Source: an uncultured Planctomycetia bacterium | Lineage (GTDB): Bacteria; Planctomycetota; Phycisphaerae; FEN-1346; JAACEH01 | Direction: 5' to 3' | Length of the DNA stretch: 64,000 nucleotides | NCBI GenBank assembly: GCA_903929765.1 | Contig: CAIYVX010000104.1 | Coordinates: forward strand, 2,405-66,404 | Shown here: positions 27,717 to 33,591 of the stretch, piece by piece | How positions within the stretch are numbered: position 1 is the first letter of the stretch | Layout of the letters: each line of letters opens with the position of its first letter | Position numbers and translations under genes: made by a program | The notes under the pieces: model-generated | Databases searched by the model: none | What the model was told of the DNA's origin: nothing | The model's input: the letters and a program-made list of their open reading frames with translations, nothing else

Positions 27717-27801
27717 GAATTTTCTCTTCACGGAAACCATTTCTGAACTTTGGCGAGTTAAGATAGGTAATATTCTGACGGATACGAAGAGCGATTTATA
27801 T

Positions 27802-27875
27802 TTGACTATCGTTGTTTTGTGATGCACAATTGCAGACCTCCGGTTGGAATTGGGGCGGCTGAGGTGCGTCGCCGG
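27802..27875 (+). promoter_or_regulatory. Putative sigma70-type promoter (TTGACT-17-CACAAT) plus a conserved 45-nt leader, copy 1
   Basis: A near-identical element is found at 29426..29500 (TTGACA-17-CACAAT followed by tgcagacctcMggttggWattggggcggctgaggYgcgtcgccgg). Both lie directly upstream of the PEP-CTERM genes. Confidence 0.45.
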
Positions 27876-27895
27876 TGGAGTTAGAGGGAATTGCC

Positions 27896-28498
27896 ATGAA
27901 CCTGCGAAAACTTTTGCCGTGCCTCGCGGCCATTGCGGTCGCGCTCTGCGCCGCGGGTGGCGTGCGGGCGGCCGCCATCGTTAATGGCGACTTCGGAACA
28001 GGGAATCTCACCGGTTGGTCGGCATCTTCCTGGGGCGGCCCGGGTGGTGTAGGCGTTGTCACTTCCCCCGCACCCCCCGATGGAACATATTGTGCGTCGC
28101 TTTGGGCAGGGCCGAACGGTACTTCGCAACTTGTTACAGGCAACACCCAGGGCTTTTATGCTCACGTGGGCGATGTCCTCTCGTTCGAATATCAAGGCAC
28201 TTATACCGCAGGAGAGTCGGGGCTTTCGGCGAAGGTAATAGGATCTGGTGGTTATGGCGGAGGATATTTACTCTACCCACCTGGTAACTCTGTCCAGGCG
28301 TTGAGTTCGCAGTGGCAGAGTGCATCGTTCCAGTTCGGGGCTTCCGGCATTTACTACTTGGATTTTGAAGTTCAGGAGGCCGCCCTCGGACAGATAGACT
28401 TCTACGTGGCCGACGTTCAATTGACACCTGAGCCAGCCAGCATGGGCCTGCTGGCGGCGGGTTTGGGGGCACTTCTCATCCGGCGCAGGATCGGATGA
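27896..28498 (+). CDS. PEP-CTERM sorting-domain protein with an N-terminal beta-sandwich (CBM4/9-like NGxFxxGxLTGW) domain
   Basis: Signal peptide MNLRKLLPCLAAIAVALCAAGGVRA and C-terminal TPEPASMGLLAAGLGALLIRRRIG (PEP motif, TM helix, basic tail). GAGGGAA SD. Confidence 0.8.
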   Translation: MNLRKLLPCLAAIAVALCAAGGVRAAAIVNGDFGTGNLTGWSASSWGGPGGVGVVTSPAPPDGTYCASLWAGPNGTSQLVTGNTQGFYAHVGDVLSFEYQGTYTAGESGLSAKVIGSGGYGGGYLLYPPGNSVQALSSQWQSASFQFGASGIYYLDFEVQEAALGQIDFYVADVQLTPEPASMGLLAAGLGALLIRRRIG

Positions 28499-30096: not shown

Positions 30097-30129
30097 AAAC
30101 CTCACGCTTTCTATTCCGGGGGCATCAAC

Positions 30130-33100
30130 ATGCAAAGACCATTTGCACTTTCTTTGGCGGCTATGGTGATGATCTGCGTGCCGGCTATGGCTGGAGGTGG
30201 GCCGCAGAATGTCCTGGTCATCTACAATTCTCAGATTTCTTGGTCTCAGAGTATTGCACTGCACTATCAGGCGGCGCGGAATATTCCATCTGACAACATG
30301 CTGGCCTTGAGTATCACCCTGAGCAACCTTTCAGTCAGTCAGCCGCCCACCAGCCACCGCTTGGCAAGCTATGGGAGTCCCGGCTCTGACGACGACAACA
30401 TGCTGATGATGACCGTGACCGAATTCACGAATTCCATCTACAACCCAATCGTAAATTACCTGAAACAAAAGTCCCTCACGAACCAAGTATATATCCTTGT
30501 AATTTGCGAAGGCATTCCCTGGAGGACGTGGCCGAACATCAGCGAAAGCACGGCTGCAACGGTCAATAATTCTGAGGGGTTCGACGCCAACTGGAACGTC
30601 ATTGGTTCCGAAGCTCATGTTGACACAGCTTACGGCCGGTTTATTCTTGGCAACGCGCCGCCCGTAGGCTGTTCGGGCAACCCCGGATATACGACATATT
30701 ACGGCACAAATGAAGCCTTCAAGCTCAACAACTGGTCGGTTCCGACCTATACCAGTTCTGGCTATTCGACAGGGAACAAGATACCATTTCTTGTTTCAAT
30801 GCTCTACGGCTATTTTGCTGGCGATTACCTGCATGGACAGAACCTTGTGAACGACGCCGTTGACCGTGCGGTTGCCGGCGACGCAACATATGATGTTTAC
30901 TACCCATACGGCTGTCGCCAACAAGTTGGCGTGCCAACGCATCAGATATGTTCACAACCATGTACTTTTCTTTTCCTTGACAGTGATGACAATCTGAGGA
31001 ACGGGCGAAGCCCATATTTCTGGATCGAAGCAGAAACATTGAGGCAAGAAGGTCTCGGGGCGATTTGCGATAAACTTTGTGTGGCAACTTCCAGCCTCTA
31101 TCAGCCGTGGCTAAATCCCGGATTTACCGGTTCGGTTATGGGCATCACCATGGGGTCGCAACAGATCCCCGAGCCAAATGTTACCGGCACGACTGCATAT
31201 GTCTGGTCCTCTGCACACGGTTGGCCCTGGGCCAACGGGGCCTATGGGGAGACCCTGACCTCCTTCGGAGGATTGTTCCTCGGTTCTTATCAAGATGGAA
31301 GAGGCCAAATTTACAATTGGCACACAACCCCGGAATGTTTTATGGCGGCCGGGGGAATTGGCGGCTACGGCACCGGAAAGGAGCCTCACGCCATCAATGA
31401 GAAATTCCCTCTTCCGCTCCAATTCCGCCGGTATGCGGAGGGGTTCAGTTACGTCGAGGTGATGTACCAGTCTATAGCCGATATATCTGATGCGACCGTG
31501 GTCGGCGATCCCCTTTCCGCTCCCTTTGCCAAACGCCCCTCGGTCGACGTTTCAGGGCTGCCGGCGCAGGTGAACCAAGGCGATCAACTAGTGGTTTCGA
31601 TCAATGCCACGCCCTGTAATCAAGGCGGAGCTGTGCAGCGGCTCGAAGCTTATGTTGATGGCCATTTCGTGGCTTCGTATGTTCCGTCCTGCCCGGCGGA
31701 TCAAACGGTCAGCGTGACTATTAGCGGCGCTACGGTATCCTACACCACGACCGGCGGCGAGACGCGCGGTGCTATTCTGAGCCAAATCCAAAATACGATC
31801 AACAACTCACTGTCCGGTTCCGTGGTAGCTGTCGGCAAAGACCTCGGGTGGTATTATCAATTCAACAACCTTTCTAGTATAACGCAGGTTCAGCCGCAAG
31901 CAGGCACAGGCAACCAGACAAGTGGTCAACTTATGTTATTGACCCAGGCGCGCGGGTTCCCCGGCAATGGAATTTCGACCACGGCTTCCGGCACAAACGG
32001 CAGCGGCGCTAATTTTGTTCACCCCTACTGGCTGGCCCCGGCTACTTACGGCGGCGCTCAGTGGGATGGCATCGTTGCTCACGACCATCTTGCGGTTACG
32101 GTTTCACAGCGGCTGGTGGCCCCTGGCGGCGAGTCGCTGACCGTCGAGTTCATCTCCAGTGACGGATTATTCACGAATTCCGGCGTCGTTACCATCTCTG
32201 AAAACATGGGCACAAACGACATAGCTCATGCCCTTGCTCAGGAGATGGGTGCTATCAGTGGCGGCCAGTACGAATCCATCGGCAATATTCTTTACTGGAT
32301 TAATTGCTCGGAATCTGGTGCAACTTTTACTGTCCATCATGACGACTGCGCCGCAAGCGGTTTCGTGGTCGAGCTCTCCGATTATGATTATTTTGGCGAC
32401 TCCTGGGACGACTGGAGCGCCCCGATTTCTGAAAATTCGAGTGGCGACCTCATTTTTACGGATAATACCCCACAGGAAGACTGGAGCATTTCGGCCGGCG
32501 AGATTAAAGTTTCCGTGGTACAAAAAGCATTCAGCCAACTTGTGTCGCCATCGAGCGACGTGTTGACAGTTCAATTCCATTCCAGCGACGACGTGACTTC
32601 CGGCACCGGCTCGGTGAATCTTTCGACGGCTACTTCCAGCGCTGACGCCGCGTGTATGACCGCCTCGTGTATGGCCATGGCAAGTTGCGGACAATATCAA
32701 TTTTTCCAATCTGGAAACATCTACGAAATCCAAGCCACGGGCAGCACCCCGGCCTCCACCTTCATTATCAACCAATCGGGCAGCGACACAAGTTGGTTTG
32801 AAATTGGGCTGCGGTCTTTTTCTGCGGATTCGAGCGGCAATATTGTGGGCCAGACATCCGGCGGCGGGCCGGGACTAAATTACCTTTATCTTGACATGGG
32901 CTGGGACAATCTGACGAAGACCTTCTCGTTCGACACGACCAGCCTTTCGCCGACTACGCACACGCTGATGATTGTCGCTTTCGACGGCGGCGCAGCCGAG
33001 GCCCAGGGTTATTGGAGCGGCAGTTTTACGGTTAGCGGCAACTGGGTCTATCAGAACCCGCCGCCGGATCAGACGGACACGACCGAGGCCTGGCTGGAGA

Positions 33101-33591
33101 GGGAGTTTTTCGTCCTGGCCCCGGAAGGCTGGCCCGCGGAATTGTACACGCTTTTCGTGTTCGAGAGCGGGCCGGGAGTGGTTTATCTGTCCGAGACGCC
33201 GAGTTACTCTCCGGGCTTGTCTACTTCATATCTCTGCTATAGCGTTTCGGGGGAACCCGGCTCATATCTGACCTTTTGGGCCATCGGCAGCACCATGAGC
33301 AACAACGGCTGGGGCGTCGGGGCCTGTGTCCTGACGGTCAGCCTGACGGCGCCGCCGGATTACACAAATTCCGAGGGCGTGACGATAGAGGTCCGGCTCC
33401 TGGGCGACATAAACGGCGACGGCATGGTGGACGGGGACGACCTGGACATCCTGAACGAGCGGCTGAACGGTTTCGAGATCACGCCCTGCACGGACGAAGA
33501 CTGCGAGTTGTGCGCCAACCCTTATGTGACGACCGCCGACCGGGTCAGGCTGCGAAAAATATTGAACGGCGTCTTTACGCAAAGTCCGTGA
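30130..33591 (+). CDS. Giant secreted protein (1153 aa) with a conserved N-terminal domain of unknown function and a C-terminal dockerin-like double calcium-binding repeat
   Basis: Signal peptide. About 500 aa conserved with the 54353 protein (YILVICEGIPWR, FLVSMLYGYFAGD, TTAYVWSSAHGWPWA, FPLPLQFRRYAEGFSYVEVMYQS). The C-terminus has GDINGDGMVDGDDLDILNERLNG plus a second repeat. Lower GC than the genome background. Confidence 0.75.
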   Translation: MQRPFALSLAAMVMICVPAMAGGGPQNVLVIYNSQISWSQSIALHYQAARNIPSDNMLALSITLSNLSVSQPPTSHRLASYGSPGSDDDNMLMMTVTEFTNSIYNPIVNYLKQKSLTNQVYILVICEGIPWRTWPNISESTAATVNNSEGFDANWNVIGSEAHVDTAYGRFILGNAPPVGCSGNPGYTTYYGTNEAFKLNNWSVPTYTSSGYSTGNKIPFLVSMLYGYFAGDYLHGQNLVNDAVDRAVAGDATYDVYYPYGCRQQVGVPTHQICSQPCTFLFLDSDDNLRNGRSPYFWIEAETLRQEGLGAICDKLCVATSSLYQPWLNPGFTGSVMGITMGSQQIPEPNVTGTTAYVWSSAHGWPWANGAYGETLTSFGGLFLGSYQDGRGQIYNWHTTPECFMAAGGIGGYGTGKEPHAINEKFPLPLQFRRYAEGFSYVEVMYQSIADISDATVVGDPLSAPFAKRPSVDVSGLPAQVNQGDQLVVSINATPCNQGGAVQRLEAYVDGHFVASYVPSCPADQTVSVTISGATVSYTTTGGETRGAILSQIQNTINNSLSGSVVAVGKDLGWYYQFNNLSSITQVQPQAGTGNQTSGQLMLLTQARGFPGNGISTTASGTNGSGANFVHPYWLAPATYGGAQWDGIVAHDHLAVTVSQRLVAPGGESLTVEFISSDGLFTNSGVVTISENMGTNDIAHALAQEMGAISGGQYESIGNILYWINCSESGATFTVHHDDCAASGFVVELSDYDYFGDSWDDWSAPISENSSGDLIFTDNTPQEDWSISAGEIKVSVVQKAFSQLVSPSSDVLTVQFHSSDDVTSGTGSVNLSTATSSADAACMTASCMAMASCGQYQFFQSGNIYEIQATGSTPASTFIINQSGSDTSWFEIGLRSFSADSSGNIVGQTSGGGPGLNYLYLDMGWDNLTKTFSFDTTSLSPTTHTLMIVAFDGGAAEAQGYWSGSFTVSGNWVYQNPPPDQTDTTEAWLEREFFVLAPEGWPAELYTLFVFESGPGVVYLSETPSYSPGLSTSYLCYSVSGEPGSYLTFWAIGSTMSNNGWGVGACVLTVSLTAPPDYTNSEGVTIEVRLLGDINGDGMVDGDDLDILNERLNGFEITPCTDEDCELCANPYVTTADRVRLRKILNGVFTQSP

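What the first reader, a model, noticed from the sequence alone, without database searches (positions are those of the whole stretch)
27800..33591. Tandemly duplicated lower-GC cassette: promoter, PEP-CTERM beta-sandwich protein, giant dockerin-tailed secreted protein; first copy truncated
Two adjacent units share (i) a near-identical promoter and leader, (ii) PEP-CTERM proteins whose first 45 residues and sorting tails are nearly identical, and (iii) giant-protein N-domains that are about 75% identical at the protein level with a roughly 190-nt stretch almost identical at the DNA level (29101-29290 vs 30661-30850). The first giant copy stops at 295 aa. GC content here is about 50-60% against about 67% elsewhere. 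This points to recent duplication or gene conversion of a horizontally acquired two-gene surface module. The conserved 500-aa N-domain (AGGGPQNVLVVYN, YILVICEGxPWR, FLVSMLYGYFAGD, FPLPLQFRRYAxGFSYVEVMYQS) matches no family I can name.
Basis: seen in the sequence. Interest (0 to 1): 0.7.

Follow-up and report, generated by a model that had tools for sequence, protein, structure and literature searches.

The report
Old duplicated surface-protein cassette, partly homogenised
A low-GC islet in a planctomycete-like genome holds two old tandem copies of a two-gene cell-surface module, the first cut short; the copies are patched by recent gene conversion, and the "unknown" domain is a divergent TIGR03790-family domain with a gingipain-like fold and no conserved protease His or Cys.

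Summary
Two tandem units lie at 27.8-33.6 kb. Each has a promoter-like site, a PEP-CTERM protein with a carbohydrate-binding-module-like beta-sandwich, and a large secreted protein. The first large gene stops at 295 aa. GC3 is 0.58-0.67 in these genes against 0.80-0.90 in host genes.

- The duplication is not recent. Synonymous sites are saturated. Each unit has closer relatives on other metagenome contigs than in its neighbour.
- What is recent is a gene-conversion tract, 29105-29266 versus 30667-30828, with 3 mismatches in 162 nt.
- The truncation fits a tandem duplication whose right breakpoint lay inside the large gene. Independent assemblies reproduce both junctions, so it is not an artefact.
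- The "unnameable" N-domain is a divergent relative of the catalogued but uncharacterised TIGR03790 family (37-50 bits, cutoff 67). The family is widespread in Planctomycetota and Verrucomicrobiota.
- The same PEP-CTERM-then-large-gene pair recurs on other contigs, so it is a conserved module.

Function is inferred: an exosortase-anchored lectin-like protein plus a dockerin-tailed, probably non-proteolytic gingipain-fold protein. Interest is moderate.

The parts
27760..33600 (+). Low-GC islet holding the whole cassette array. It lies between a 995-aa membrane-protein gene (ends 27716) and an ADP-ribosylglycohydrolase gene (starts 33762).
   Evidence: GC is 0.515-0.556 against about 0.60-0.70 elsewhere. 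GC3 is 0.58-0.67 in the islet against 0.80-0.90 in flanking genes.
27802..27830 (+). Promoter-like site of unit 1 (TTGACT-17-CACAAT). It is followed by a 5' UTR (27831-27895) carrying a conserved TTGGGGCGG..TGA motif.
   Evidence: Consensus scan. The hexamers and the UTR motif are conserved in L084, L086 and L088 (alignment A4).
27896..28498 (+). PEP1: a 200-aa secreted protein with a signal peptide, a beta-sandwich-type centre and a PEP-CTERM sorting tail.
   Evidence: TIGR02595 scores 22.9 bits against a cutoff of 16. It is 45% identical to PEP2. Its closest relative is on L088 (54%). The ATG start is set by homolog alignment.
28553..29440 (+). T295: a 5' fragment of a large TIGR03790-like gene. 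Codons 1-257 (28553-29321) are homologous to G1153. Codons 258-295 (29322-29437) form a unique tail. The stop TGA (29438-29440) lies inside the unit-2 promoter.
   Evidence: ORF list. Homology ends at 29321. The tail has no detectable homolog. TIGR03790 scores 36.8 bits. dN/dS against G1153 is 0.27 and there is no rate acceleration.
29105..29266 (+). Gene-conversion tract, copy in T295. It lies inside the 279-nt, 91%-identical repeat 29040-29318.
   Evidence: 3 mismatches in 162 nt. The permutation tests on the longest identical run and on the best 200-nt window both give p<5e-5. There are 27 consecutive identical third codon positions, p=3e-4. The same columns are only 50-70% identical to L084 and L086.
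30667..30828 (+). Gene-conversion tract, copy in G1153.
   Evidence: Same as above. The repeat family D1 has a spacing of 1562 nt.
29427..29455 (+). Promoter-like site of unit 2 (TTGACA-17-CACAAT).
29521..30096 (+). PEP2: a 191-aa PEP-CTERM protein with a carbohydrate-binding-module-like beta-sandwich.
   Evidence: CBM_4_9 scores 28.4 bits against a cutoff of 25.9. TIGR02595 scores 25.2 bits. The model has pLDDT 77. Foldseek PDB top hits are CBM61, CBM4, CBM16 and CBM22 at E 5e-7 to 1e-5.
30130..33591 (+). G1153: the full-length 1153-aa secreted protein.
   Evidence: ORF list. It is 58% identical over 976 aa to the gene after the PEP homolog on L084.
30193..31533 (+). TIGR03790-like N-domain of G1153 (about aa 22-468). 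The predicted fold has two alpha/beta subdomains like a gingipain catalytic domain. Conserved motifs are GGGPxNVxVVxN, LTSFGG, GTxxEP and VGDPLxAPF.
31534..31689 (+). Start of a beta-rich, Ig-like region following the N-domain (about aa 469-520). It continues into the unassigned middle region, about aa 521-1089.
   Evidence: Beta strands at residues 471-517 in the model. The Kgp catalytic-plus-Ig structure aligns over 314 residues. The relatives' equivalent region hits Big_7.
33397..33567 (+). Dockerin-like C-terminal tail (about aa 1090-1146). The first Ca-binding repeat, GDINGDGMVDGDD, is intact. The second repeat is degenerate.
   Evidence: Pfam Dockerin_1 scores 13.8 bits, below the cutoff of 22.9. 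Weak PDB dockerin hits. P0050 scores 26.4 bits and G1139 scores 22.2 bits.
54353..57745 (+). G1139: a third paralog (1130 aa) with host-like composition and no PEP-CTERM partner.
   Evidence: It is 53% identical to G1153 over 792 aligned positions. GC3 is 0.85. It has Flg_new_2 and dockerin hits. Only two PEP-CTERM ORFs exist in the window.

Best explanation
Shown:
- A 5.8-kb, compositionally atypical islet in a Planctomycetota genome (Phycisphaerae-like) carries an old tandem array of a conserved two-gene surface module.
- The module is: promoter, then a PEP-CTERM-tailed beta-sandwich protein of carbohydrate-binding-module type, then a large secreted protein.
- The large protein has a TIGR03790-related N-domain with a predicted gingipain-like fold. 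After it come an Ig-like region, an unassigned middle region and a dockerin-like tail.
- The two units are ancient relative to each other. They are kept partly alike by gene conversion, with a recent tract of about 160 nt.

Inferred, evolution:
- The array arose by a tandem duplication of about 1.6 kb. Its right breakpoint fell after codon 257 of the large gene, or two cassette variants were juxtaposed with the same outcome.
- Either way, the upstream copy is a 295-aa fragment that reads into the next unit's promoter.
- The array probably arrived in this genome already formed.

Inferred, function:
- Both proteins are exported through Sec.
- The small protein is processed by an exosortase and fixed at the cell surface as a glycan-binding lectin.
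- The large protein is held at the surface through its dockerin.
- Its gingipain-fold domain acts as a non-cysteine-protease module, either for binding or with re-tooled catalysis. It is not a classical His/Cys peptidase.
- T295 retains only the signal peptide, the first subdomain and the start of the second, so it cannot carry the conserved motif loops.
For: Anatomy and repeats.

Age of the duplication:
- pS is 0.6-0.7 outside the tract, and overall dS is 0.85.
- In the PEP central domain, PEP1-PEP2 identity is 32%, against 50% for PEP1-L088 and 48% for PEP2-L084/L086.
- In the large-gene N-part before the tract, T295-G1153 identity is 66%, against 71% for T295-L084/L086 and 76% for G1153-L086.

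Gene conversion:
- The tract is not conserved against L084 or L086.

Not an artefact:
- Contigs from other samples match 26800-29068, 27331-28724, 29334-30325 and 29467-30504 at 99.9-100%.
- They break only at the borders of the repeat.

Conserved module:
- L084/L085 and L086/L087 carry a PEP homolog followed 55 nt later by a large-gene homolog.
- The promoter, UTR motif and signal-peptide DNA are conserved across these contigs.
- No terminator-like site lies between the paired genes.

Composition.

Family and fold:
- All 20 members of alignment A3 hit it, best E 1e-52.
- 1,255 representative relatives exist, but only 3 at E<1e-30.
- More than 551 loci were found in genomes labelled almost entirely Planctomycetota, Verrucomicrobiota or Kiritimatiellia.
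- No His or Cys is among the invariant or near-invariant columns.

PEP proteins.

Host: the best named relatives of the BioA gene are about 70% identical and are mostly labelled Phycisphaerae or Planctomycetes.
Against: - The fold assignment rests on one method. Foldseek against PDB gave no significant hit (best E 0.14, with only CHAT and separase among weak hits).
- hhalign of the family profile against the RgpB sequence gave probability 0.1.
- There is no Pfam Peptidase_C25 hit.
- The model has 170 residues with pLDDT below 50.
- The mapping of LTSFGG and GTxxEP onto the His and Cys loops is my inference from strand order and spacing, not a superposition.
- The dockerin score in G1153 is below threshold, and no cohesin or exosortase gene was seen in the window.
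- The module's GC3 is also below its flanks on L084, L086 and L088. Low GC may therefore be a property of the module rather than proof of recent transfer into this genome.
- The junction segment 29322-29425 has no homolog. Duplication at a breakpoint and later deletion of a full first copy therefore cannot be told apart.
Confidence: 0.6

Rival explanations
1. Recent in-situ tandem duplication of the cassette in this genome. The differences would be due to fast divergence of surface proteins.
For: The tandem order is identical and the unit spacing is 1562-1625 nt. Promoter and leader are 82-90% identical. There is a near-identical stretch of about 160 nt.
Against: Synonymous sites are saturated outside the tract. 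dN/dS values are 0.14-0.35, which is not fast adaptive divergence. Both PEP proteins and both large-gene N-parts have closer relatives on other contigs than in the neighbouring unit.
Confidence: 0.08
2. Assembly artefact: a collapsed or chimeric join at the repeat creates a false truncated gene.
For: Other assemblies break exactly at the borders of the 29040-29321 repeat. None spans 29069-29333. The longest exact run of 78 nt could confuse small k-mers.
Against: Independent contigs from other samples carry host gene to PEP1 to T295 5' (26800-29068). They also carry T295 tail to unit-2 promoter to PEP2 to G1153 5' (29334-30325), at 99.9-100% identity. The tail-to-promoter junction that defines the truncation therefore exists elsewhere. 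The two repeat copies differ by 9%. The homology of T295 continues 55 nt past the tract at lower identity.
Confidence: 0.03
3. T295 is not debris. It is a maintained gene: a secreted stand-alone first-subdomain protein, or a partial copy that serves as a sequence donor or recipient for gene conversion with the full-length gene. This would resemble the partial pilin copies of Neisseria.
For: The frame is open over 257 homologous codons despite dS of about 0.85, with dN/dS 0.27. There is no excess of unique amino-acid changes: 13 in T295 against 20 in G1153 with G1139 as outgroup, and 6 against 15 with P0050. The signal peptide is retained. A conversion tract is documented. L086 also keeps a PEP gene plus a 5' fragment of the large gene.
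Against: It lacks all the conserved loops of the second subdomain. The L086 fragment is frameshifted, with pN about equal to pS against L084, as expected for decay. If the truncation is recent and hit an old full-length paralog, an intact frame is expected without selection. Conversion can refresh a dead copy.
Confidence: 0.3
4. The N-domain is an active gingipain-type (C25, clan CD) cysteine peptidase, and the module is a surface protease with its adhesin.
Against: No conserved His or Cys anywhere in the family alignment. No Peptidase_C25 sequence signal. Beta-sandwich similarity is generic: CBM families score as well or better.
Confidence: 0.08
5. The low GC is an intrinsic property of this gene module, for example from expression level, mutation bias at a recombining locus or codon preference. 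It would then not be a sign of horizontal acquisition.
For: Module genes have GC3 0.67-0.74 against 0.78-0.88 in their flanks on L084, L086 and L088 too.
Against: The flanking genes differ in all four contexts. The native-looking paralogs G1139 and P0050 have host-like GC3 of 0.84-0.85. Other low-GC stretches of the window are restriction-modification genes, which are typically mobile. Repeated transfer of a lower-GC cassette explains the same data.
Confidence: 0.3

Closest known systems
TIGR03790 family (NCBIfam, 'TIGR03790 family protein', uncharacterised)
   Same: The N-terminal motif after the signal peptide (AGGGPxNVxVVVN), LTSFGG, GTxxEP and VGDPLxAPF are shared. All three window paralogs hit the model at E 3e-9 to 4e-13. 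Relatives come from genome records labelled almost entirely Planctomycetota, Verrucomicrobiota or Kiritimatiellia, and JGI annotates many related metagenome proteins as this family.
   Different: Scores of 37-50 bits lie below the curated cutoff of 67. This subfamily has four insertions (about aa 68-91, 135-186, 203-234 and 258-274) and a dockerin tail. Besides the window's own two paralogs, only one other representative (P0050, 43% identity) falls below E 1e-30 among 1.84 billion representatives. No paper in the searched library mentions the family.
Gingipains RgpB and Kgp (MEROPS family C25, clan CD)
   Different: 11% identity. No conserved catalytic His or Cys. No sequence-profile signal. 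Foldseek is not significant. There is no T9SS C-terminal domain; a dockerin-like tail takes its place.
Pseudo-orthocaspases (clan CD homologs with Tyr/Ser in place of His/Cys; PMC6426788)
   Same: They set a precedent for widespread bacterial clan-CD-fold proteins that have lost the His-Cys dyad yet are conserved.
   Different: They belong to a different family (C14, not C25-like), have different replacement residues and are cytoplasmic. The relationship here is by analogy only.
PEP-CTERM/exosortase sorting system (PMC1569441)
   Same: Both small proteins end in TPEPA plus a hydrophobic helix and an Arg/Lys cluster. Both pass TIGR02595.
   Different: The exosortase itself is not in the window. 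The pairing of a PEP-CTERM gene with a TIGR03790-like gene does not appear in any paper my few searches returned. That pairing was seen for this subfamily (L084, L086; convergent on L081) and in about 9 of 80 distant loci.
'Planctosome' cohesin-dockerin hypothesis in freshwater Planctomycetes (Nemodlikiaceae) (PMC6461901)
   Same: A dockerin-bearing secreted protein with a peptidase-type fold occurs in a planctomycete. The idea of dockerin-mediated surface assembly outside cellulose degradation is shared.
   Different: That model involves M12B and M14 metallopeptidases and identified cohesin scaffolds. Here no cohesin partner is known and the domain lacks protease catalytic residues.
Partial-copy gene conversion systems (e.g. 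Neisseria pilE/pilS; from my own knowledge)
   Same: A truncated paralog lies next to a full-length surface-protein gene, and a demonstrable conversion tract links them.
   Different: T295 keeps its promoter context and signal peptide, so it is not silent. Only one tract is seen. There is no evidence of programmed variation, and dN/dS is below 1.

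Membership tests
PEP-CTERM sorting domain (TIGR02595 / PF07589) | A C-terminal Pro-Glu-Pro motif, a hydrophobic helix and a basic cluster, scoring above the model cutoff | tested here: met
   TIGR02595 scores 22.9 bits (PEP1) and 25.2 bits (PEP2) against a cutoff of 16. Pfam PF07589 scores 20.1 and 19.2 bits, just under its cutoff of 20.7. 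The tails TPEPASMGLLAAGLGALLIRRR and TPEPATIGLLAAGLSALMLLRK are visible in the sequence.
PEP-CTERM sorting domain (TIGR02595 / PF07589) | An exosortase (EpsH/Xrt) encoded in the same genome | not testable with these tools
   Only 64 kb of the genome is available. None of the window ORFs scanned is an exosortase.
CBM_4_9-type carbohydrate-binding module | A Pfam hit above the gathering score and a beta-sandwich fold | tested here: inconclusive
   PEP2 scores 28.4 bits against a cutoff of 25.9, but only over residues 31-78. PEP1 has no hit. The PEP2 model matches CBM61, CBM4, CBM16 and CBM22 by Foldseek at E 5e-7 to 1e-5, with TM-scores 0.35-0.55 on the query and 0.40-0.69 on the target. Sugar binding was not tested.
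TIGR03790 family | A score at or above the curated cutoff of 67 bits | tested here: not met
   Scores are 36.8 bits (T295), 45.5-49.8 bits (G1153) and 49.6 bits (G1139). They are significant (E down to 4e-13) but sub-threshold. This is a divergent relative, not a formal member.
TIGR03790 family | Shared conserved motifs and transitive homology to bona fide members | tested here: met
   Hits at 23-38% identity cover up to 100% of the query, and many are annotated TIGR03790. All 20 aligned sequences hit the model, best E 1e-52. The motifs are in alignment A3.
Peptidase C25 (gingipain), clan CD | A caspase-hemoglobinase-type alpha/beta fold with the gingipain two-subdomain arrangement | tested here: inconclusive
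Peptidase C25 (gingipain), clan CD | A conserved catalytic His-Cys dyad (RgpB His211 and Cys244) | tested here: not met
   No His or Cys is among the invariant or 90%-conserved columns of the 20-sequence alignment. From strand order and spacing, I infer that the loops where the dyad would sit carry LTSFGG and GTxxEP.
Peptidase C25 (gingipain), clan CD | Sequence-level match to the family model | tested here: not met
   No Pfam hit at E up to 10 for any of the 20 members. hhalign against the RgpB sequence gives probability 0.1 (that sequence was verified against 4ief_B and 1cvr_A).
Dockerin type I (PF00404) | Two Ca-binding repeats and a score above 22.9 bits | tested here: inconclusive
   G1153 scores 13.8 bits, with the first repeat intact and the second degenerate. 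G1139 scores 22.2 bits with two repeats. Homolog P0050 scores 26.4 bits. A cohesin partner was not found.

The most novel reading that the evidence does not exclude
The TIGR03790 domain may be a gingipain-derived fold that has swapped the His/Cys dyad for a conserved Thr/Ser, Glu and Arg set. It would then act in surface-protein or glycan processing alongside PEP-CTERM cargo. That would make it a functional counterpart of the gingipain-like sortase PorU, but in the exosortase world. In this subfamily the two-gene module would behave as a mobile, recombining cassette. Partial copies such as T295 would be kept as gene-conversion partners to vary the cell surface.
Probability: 0.15. Interest if true: 0.65.

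Novelty: new variant of a known kind. Interest (0 to 1): 0.4.

Why it matters
The duplication itself is ordinary genome evolution. Three points have wider use.

- A catalogued but unstudied family gets a testable structural hypothesis. TIGR03790 has more than 1,250 representative clusters, found mainly in Planctomycetota, Verrucomicrobiota and Kiritimatiellia. The hypothesis is a gingipain-type fold without the protease dyad.
- One of its subfamilies is tied to a PEP-CTERM lectin-like partner and a dockerin tail. That points to cell-surface assembly in planctomycetes, a process that is poorly understood.
- The locus is a clean small example of old paralogs kept mosaic by gene conversion. It shows how a near-identical patch can mislead a reader into calling a duplication recent.

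Tried and rejected
- Exact look-up of T295 in the contig index found nothing, although the protein is in the protein collection.
- The afdb50 fold library was unavailable.
- A profile search of PDB sequences gave only a chance Ig hit.
- Pfam at E up to 10 found nothing for the N-domain.
- hhalign of the family profile against RgpB failed.
- Foldseek against PDB for the N-domain gave no significant hit.
- The genome-contig scan did not return the source genome or any close relative.
- The junction segment 29310-29440 has no homolog by blastn-short or tblastx in the window or in related loci. The deletion and duplication-breakpoint scenarios therefore stay unresolved.
- Positive selection on the PEP central domain is not supported. 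Gross dN/dS is 0.35 in the only unsaturated pair.
- Rfam found nothing in the islet.
- No tRNA borders the islet; the nearest is 3.3 kb away. No flanking direct repeats were found, and no ORF of 60 aa or more lies between the cassette genes that could encode an integrase.
- A consensus RNA structure pairing the 5' UTR with the first codons is predicted but has no covariation support. The covariation term is +1.6, and 2 of 24 pairs are compensated in 5 sequences.
- Literature searches for TIGR03790, and for PEP-CTERM with dockerin and Planctomycetes, returned nothing.

Full report
**1. What is there**

On the + strand the region holds four genes. Starts are refined from homolog alignments.
- PEP1: 27896-28498, 200 aa.
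- T295: 28553-29440, 295 aa.
- PEP2: 29521-30096, 191 aa.
- G1153: 30130-33591, 1153 aa.

blastn of unit 1 against unit 2 gives three matches:
- 28603-29318 vs 30180-30880: 76.7% over 718 nt.
- 27813-28020 vs 29438-29645: 82% over 208 nt.
- 28418-28487 vs 30010-30079: 74% over 70 nt.

A third paralog, G1139, lies at 54353-57745.

Identity along the units is strongly mosaic. It is about 90% over the promoter, leader and first codons. It falls to background in the middle of the PEP genes. It is 50-80% over most of the large-gene 5' part and 95-98% over about 29074-29274.

GC is 0.515-0.556 across 28-33 kb against about 0.60-0.70 elsewhere. The N-parts are 71% identical in protein. The PEP proteins are 45% identical overall.

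**2. The truncation and the junction**

Homology of T295 to G1153 ends at 29321 (codon 257). Then come about 100 nt with no detectable homolog anywhere in the window or in related loci. Homology to the upstream region of unit 1 resumes at about 29426.

The stop codon of T295 (29438-29440) lies inside the unit-2 promoter-like site, TTGACA-17-CACAAT.

This is the architecture expected from a tandem duplication of a segment of about 1.6 kb. Its right breakpoint would lie inside the large gene: the upstream copy is cut and the downstream copy is intact. A later internal deletion of a once-complete first copy cannot be excluded.

**3. Not an assembly artefact**

Short contigs from independent samples match the window at 99.9-100%:
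- 26800-29068: host membrane gene, PEP1, 5' part of T295.
- 27331-28724.
- 29334-30325: T295 tail, unit-2 promoter, PEP2, 5' part of G1153.
- 29467-30504.

They end exactly at the borders of the 29040-29321 repeat. That is how short-read assemblers behave at a real repeat. Only 29069-29333 lacks independent support.

**4. Old duplication, recent conversion**

Outside one tract, synonymous differences are saturated. pS is 0.59-0.71 per 40-codon window, and overall dS is 0.85 with dN/dS 0.27.

The tract 29105-29266 has 3 mismatches in 162 nt. The longest identical run is 78 nt. In 20,000 permutations none gave as long an identical run, and none gave a 200-nt window with as few mismatches as the best one observed (9). 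There are 27 consecutive identical third codon positions, p=3e-4.

The same codons are only 50-70% identical to the homologs on L084 and L086. The near-identity is therefore intragenomic homogenisation, meaning gene conversion, and not DNA-level constraint.

The two units are not each other's closest relatives.

| Region compared | Within the window | Against other contigs |
|---|---|---|
| PEP central domain | PEP1-PEP2 32% | PEP1-L088 50%; PEP2-L084/L086 48% |
| Large-gene N-part before the tract | T295-G1153 66% | T295-L084/L086 71%; G1153-L086 76% |

Identity blocks also switch partners along the gene between genomes. 'Recent duplication' is rejected. The array is an ancient duplication or a juxtaposition of two cassette variants, with ongoing recombination.

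**5. A conserved module**

Four other metagenome contigs carry a PEP homolog (55-58% identical to PEP2) followed 55 nt downstream by a homolog of the large gene.
- On L084/L085 the large gene is 58% identical to G1153 over 976 aa.
- On L086/L087 the match is 68% over the first 252 aa.

On L086 the large gene is again only a 5' fragment. It is frameshifted, homology ends at about residue 316, and an unrelated response-regulator gene follows. This is an independent truncation.

The closest full-length relative outside this group is P0050 (43% identity, with a dockerin scoring 26.4 bits). A different PEP-CTERM gene lies convergent to it on L081.

The -35 and -10 hexamers, a TTGGGG(C/A)GG..TGA motif in the 5' UTR and the signal-peptide coding DNA are conserved across these contigs. 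The first 15 codons are 96-98% identical in DNA among PEP1, PEP2 and L084. No terminator-like site separates the paired genes, so co-transcription is likely.

**6. Composition**

| Genes | GC3 |
|---|---|
| Host genes in the window | 0.80-0.90 |
| G1139 | 0.85 |
| PEP1, T295, PEP2, G1153 | 0.60-0.63 |
| Restriction-modification genes at 52.6-54.0 kb | 0.59-0.64 |
| Module genes on L084, L086, L088 | 0.67-0.74 |
| Their flanking genes | 0.78-0.88 (one at 0.67) |
| P0050 and its neighbours | 0.75-0.84 |

The flanking genes differ in every context. The simplest reading is a lower-GC cassette that moves among related high-GC genomes and sits beside a native paralog here. An intrinsic compositional bias of the module is a live alternative.

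No integrase, adjacent tRNA or flanking repeat marks the islet.

The best named relatives of the BioA gene at 40132-41742 are about 70% identical. They are mostly from Phycisphaerae and Planctomycetes metagenome-assembled genomes.

**7. The N-domain**

Pfam finds nothing. NCBIfam TIGR03790 is hit by all three paralogs at 37-50 bits, E 3e-9 to 4e-13, below the cutoff of 67.

Database searches give:
- 46 relatives at 23-38% identity covering up to the whole 520 residues, many labelled TIGR03790.
- 1,255 representative clusters at E<1e-3. Only three fall below 1e-30: the two window paralogs and P0050.
- More than 551 loci in genome records labelled almost entirely Planctomycetota, Verrucomicrobiota or Kiritimatiellia.

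The domain is therefore a divergent subfamily of a catalogued, uncharacterised family. No paper in the library mentions that family.

An AlphaFold2 model built on 20 sequences has pTM 0.75 and mean pLDDT 65.8. Its low-confidence parts are the subfamily-specific insertions.

Three results go against this:
- Foldseek on the same model finds nothing significant (best E 0.14), with CHAT and separase only among weak hits.
- hhalign of the family profile against the RgpB sequence gives probability 0.1 (I verified that sequence against 1CVR and 4IEF).
- The family alignment has no conserved His or Cys.

Conserved residues include:
- Asn33, Tyr46, Arg50, Tyr190, Asp251, Arg293 and Glu443;
- Leu-Thr-Ser-Phe-Gly at 376-380;
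- Gly-Thr-x-x-Glu-Pro at 414-419;
- Gly-Asp-Pro-Leu at 459-462.

By strand order and spacing, LTSFGG and GTxxEP sit at the C-terminal ends of two strands separated by one helix. That is where clan-CD enzymes carry His-Gly and Cys: NYTGH211G and DVAC244 in RgpB, 33 residues apart, against 37 residues between Ser378 and Thr415 here. RgpB also ends its catalytic domain with VFGDPSLL, against VVGDPLSAPF here. This mapping is inference, not a superposition.

I conclude that a gingipain-type fold is probable and a classical cysteine peptidase improbable. Pseudo-orthocaspases are a precedent for dyad-less clan-CD proteins (PMC6426788).

**8. The other parts**

Both PEP proteins pass TIGR02595.

PEP2 has a partial CBM_4_9 hit above threshold. 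Its model (pLDDT 77) is a beta-sandwich matching CBM61, CBM4, CBM16 and CBM22. It also matches phage tailspike sugar-binding domains and, less well, the Kgp K3 cleaved-adhesin domain.

The C-terminal tail of G1153 has one good dockerin Ca-binding repeat and a degenerate second one (13.8 bits). G1139 and P0050 have two repeats (22.2 and 26.4 bits).

The middle 570 residues have no family assignment.

**9. T295**

T295 keeps the signal peptide, the first subdomain and the start of the second. It lacks every conserved loop of the second subdomain.

It shows no excess of unique substitutions relative to G1153: 13 against 20 with G1139 as outgroup, and 6 against 15 with P0050. It has no internal stops.

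That fits either selection on a short secreted protein, repeated refreshment by conversion, or a recent truncation of an old full-length copy. I cannot separate these.

**10. Mechanism proposed**

Shown:
- the gene anatomy;
- the conserved pairing of the two genes;
- the sorting tails on the small proteins and hydrophobic N-terminal leaders, conserved in the homologs, that I read as signal peptides;
- the fold predictions;
- the conversion tract.

Inferred:
- The operon yields an exosortase-anchored lectin-like protein (PEP-CTERM system, PMC1569441).
- It also yields a large surface protein held by a dockerin-type interaction, as in the non-cellulosomal 'planctosome' idea for freshwater Planctomycetes (PMC6461901).
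- The gingipain-fold domain binds or processes a surface or environmental polymer by a non-cysteine mechanism.
- The neighbouring sugar-utilisation genes (GH2, DUF2961, fucose isomerase, FGGY kinase, DeoR) fit a glycan-foraging lifestyle. They are not evidence of linkage.

**11. Verdict**

The feature is real, well delimited and evolutionarily ordinary: old tandem paralogs, one truncated, with a fresh conversion patch, on a probably foreign islet.

The novelty claim for the domain is reduced. It is a divergent branch of a known but unstudied family.

The gingipain-fold assignment without the catalytic dyad and the conserved pairing with a PEP-CTERM lectin-like gene are modestly interesting, testable leads.

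Noticed in passing
window 33637-33718 and 35287-35368: An 82-nt direct repeat (84% identical) contains a promoter-like site, TTGACC-17-TAAAGT. One copy lies upstream of the ADP-ribosylglycohydrolase gene (33762-35231). The other lies upstream of a WYL/WCX HTH regulator gene (35752-36816). It may be a shared operator or promoter.
   Followed up: partly
window 52651-53957: A BglII-type restriction endonuclease gene and an MT-A70 methyltransferase gene have GC3 of 0.59 and 0.64. They form a second low-GC islet directly upstream of the native-composition paralog G1139.
   Followed up: partly
window 47605-49834 (- strand): A third low-GC stretch (GC3 about 0.65) holds a 532-aa ORF with a weak N6_Mtase hit and a 224-aa ORF with no family. 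It may be another restriction-modification or defence islet.
   Followed up: no
L083:1-12131; JGI contig carrying P0034 (no DNA fetched); L021, L026, L038, L048, L059, L067, L079: In loci labelled almost entirely Verrucomicrobiota (one of the eight, L048, carries a Bifidobacteriaceae label), the TIGR03790-type gene is followed directly by a Peptidase_S8 (fervidolysin-like) gene. This holds in 7 of the 80 genome loci and in two metagenome contigs (L083 and the JGI contig carrying P0034, for which no DNA was fetched). In those two contigs, the only ones whose upstream genes I examined, secretin genes precede it. This conserved neighbourhood may bear on the family's function.
   Followed up: partly
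L086:1659-2556: An independent 5' fragment of the large gene follows the PEP-CTERM gene on another metagenome contig. It is frameshifted, homology ends at about residue 316, and a response-regulator gene follows. Truncated copies of this gene recur.
   Followed up: partly
window 27831-27940 and 29456-29565; L084, L086, L088 equivalents: The first 15 codons of the PEP genes are 96-98% identical in DNA among PEP1, PEP2 and L084 (78-87% to L086 and L088). A UTR motif, TTGGGG(C/A)GG..TGA, is also conserved. RNAalifold predicts pairing of the UTR with the start of the coding region, but without covariation support.
   Followed up: partly
window 24729-27716: A 995-aa, highly hydrophobic ORF has no Pfam or NCBIfam hit. 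It lies immediately upstream of the islet.
   Followed up: no
window 36879-37050: tRNA-Arg(TCG) and tRNA-Lys(CTT) genes lie 3.3 kb downstream of the islet. They are not adjacent to it.
   Followed up: yes
window 4985-6511 and 8680-10197 (- strand): Two B12-binding radical SAM genes lie next to a sugar-utilisation cluster (fucose isomerase, GH2, DUF2961, FGGY kinase, DeoR regulator).
   Followed up: no
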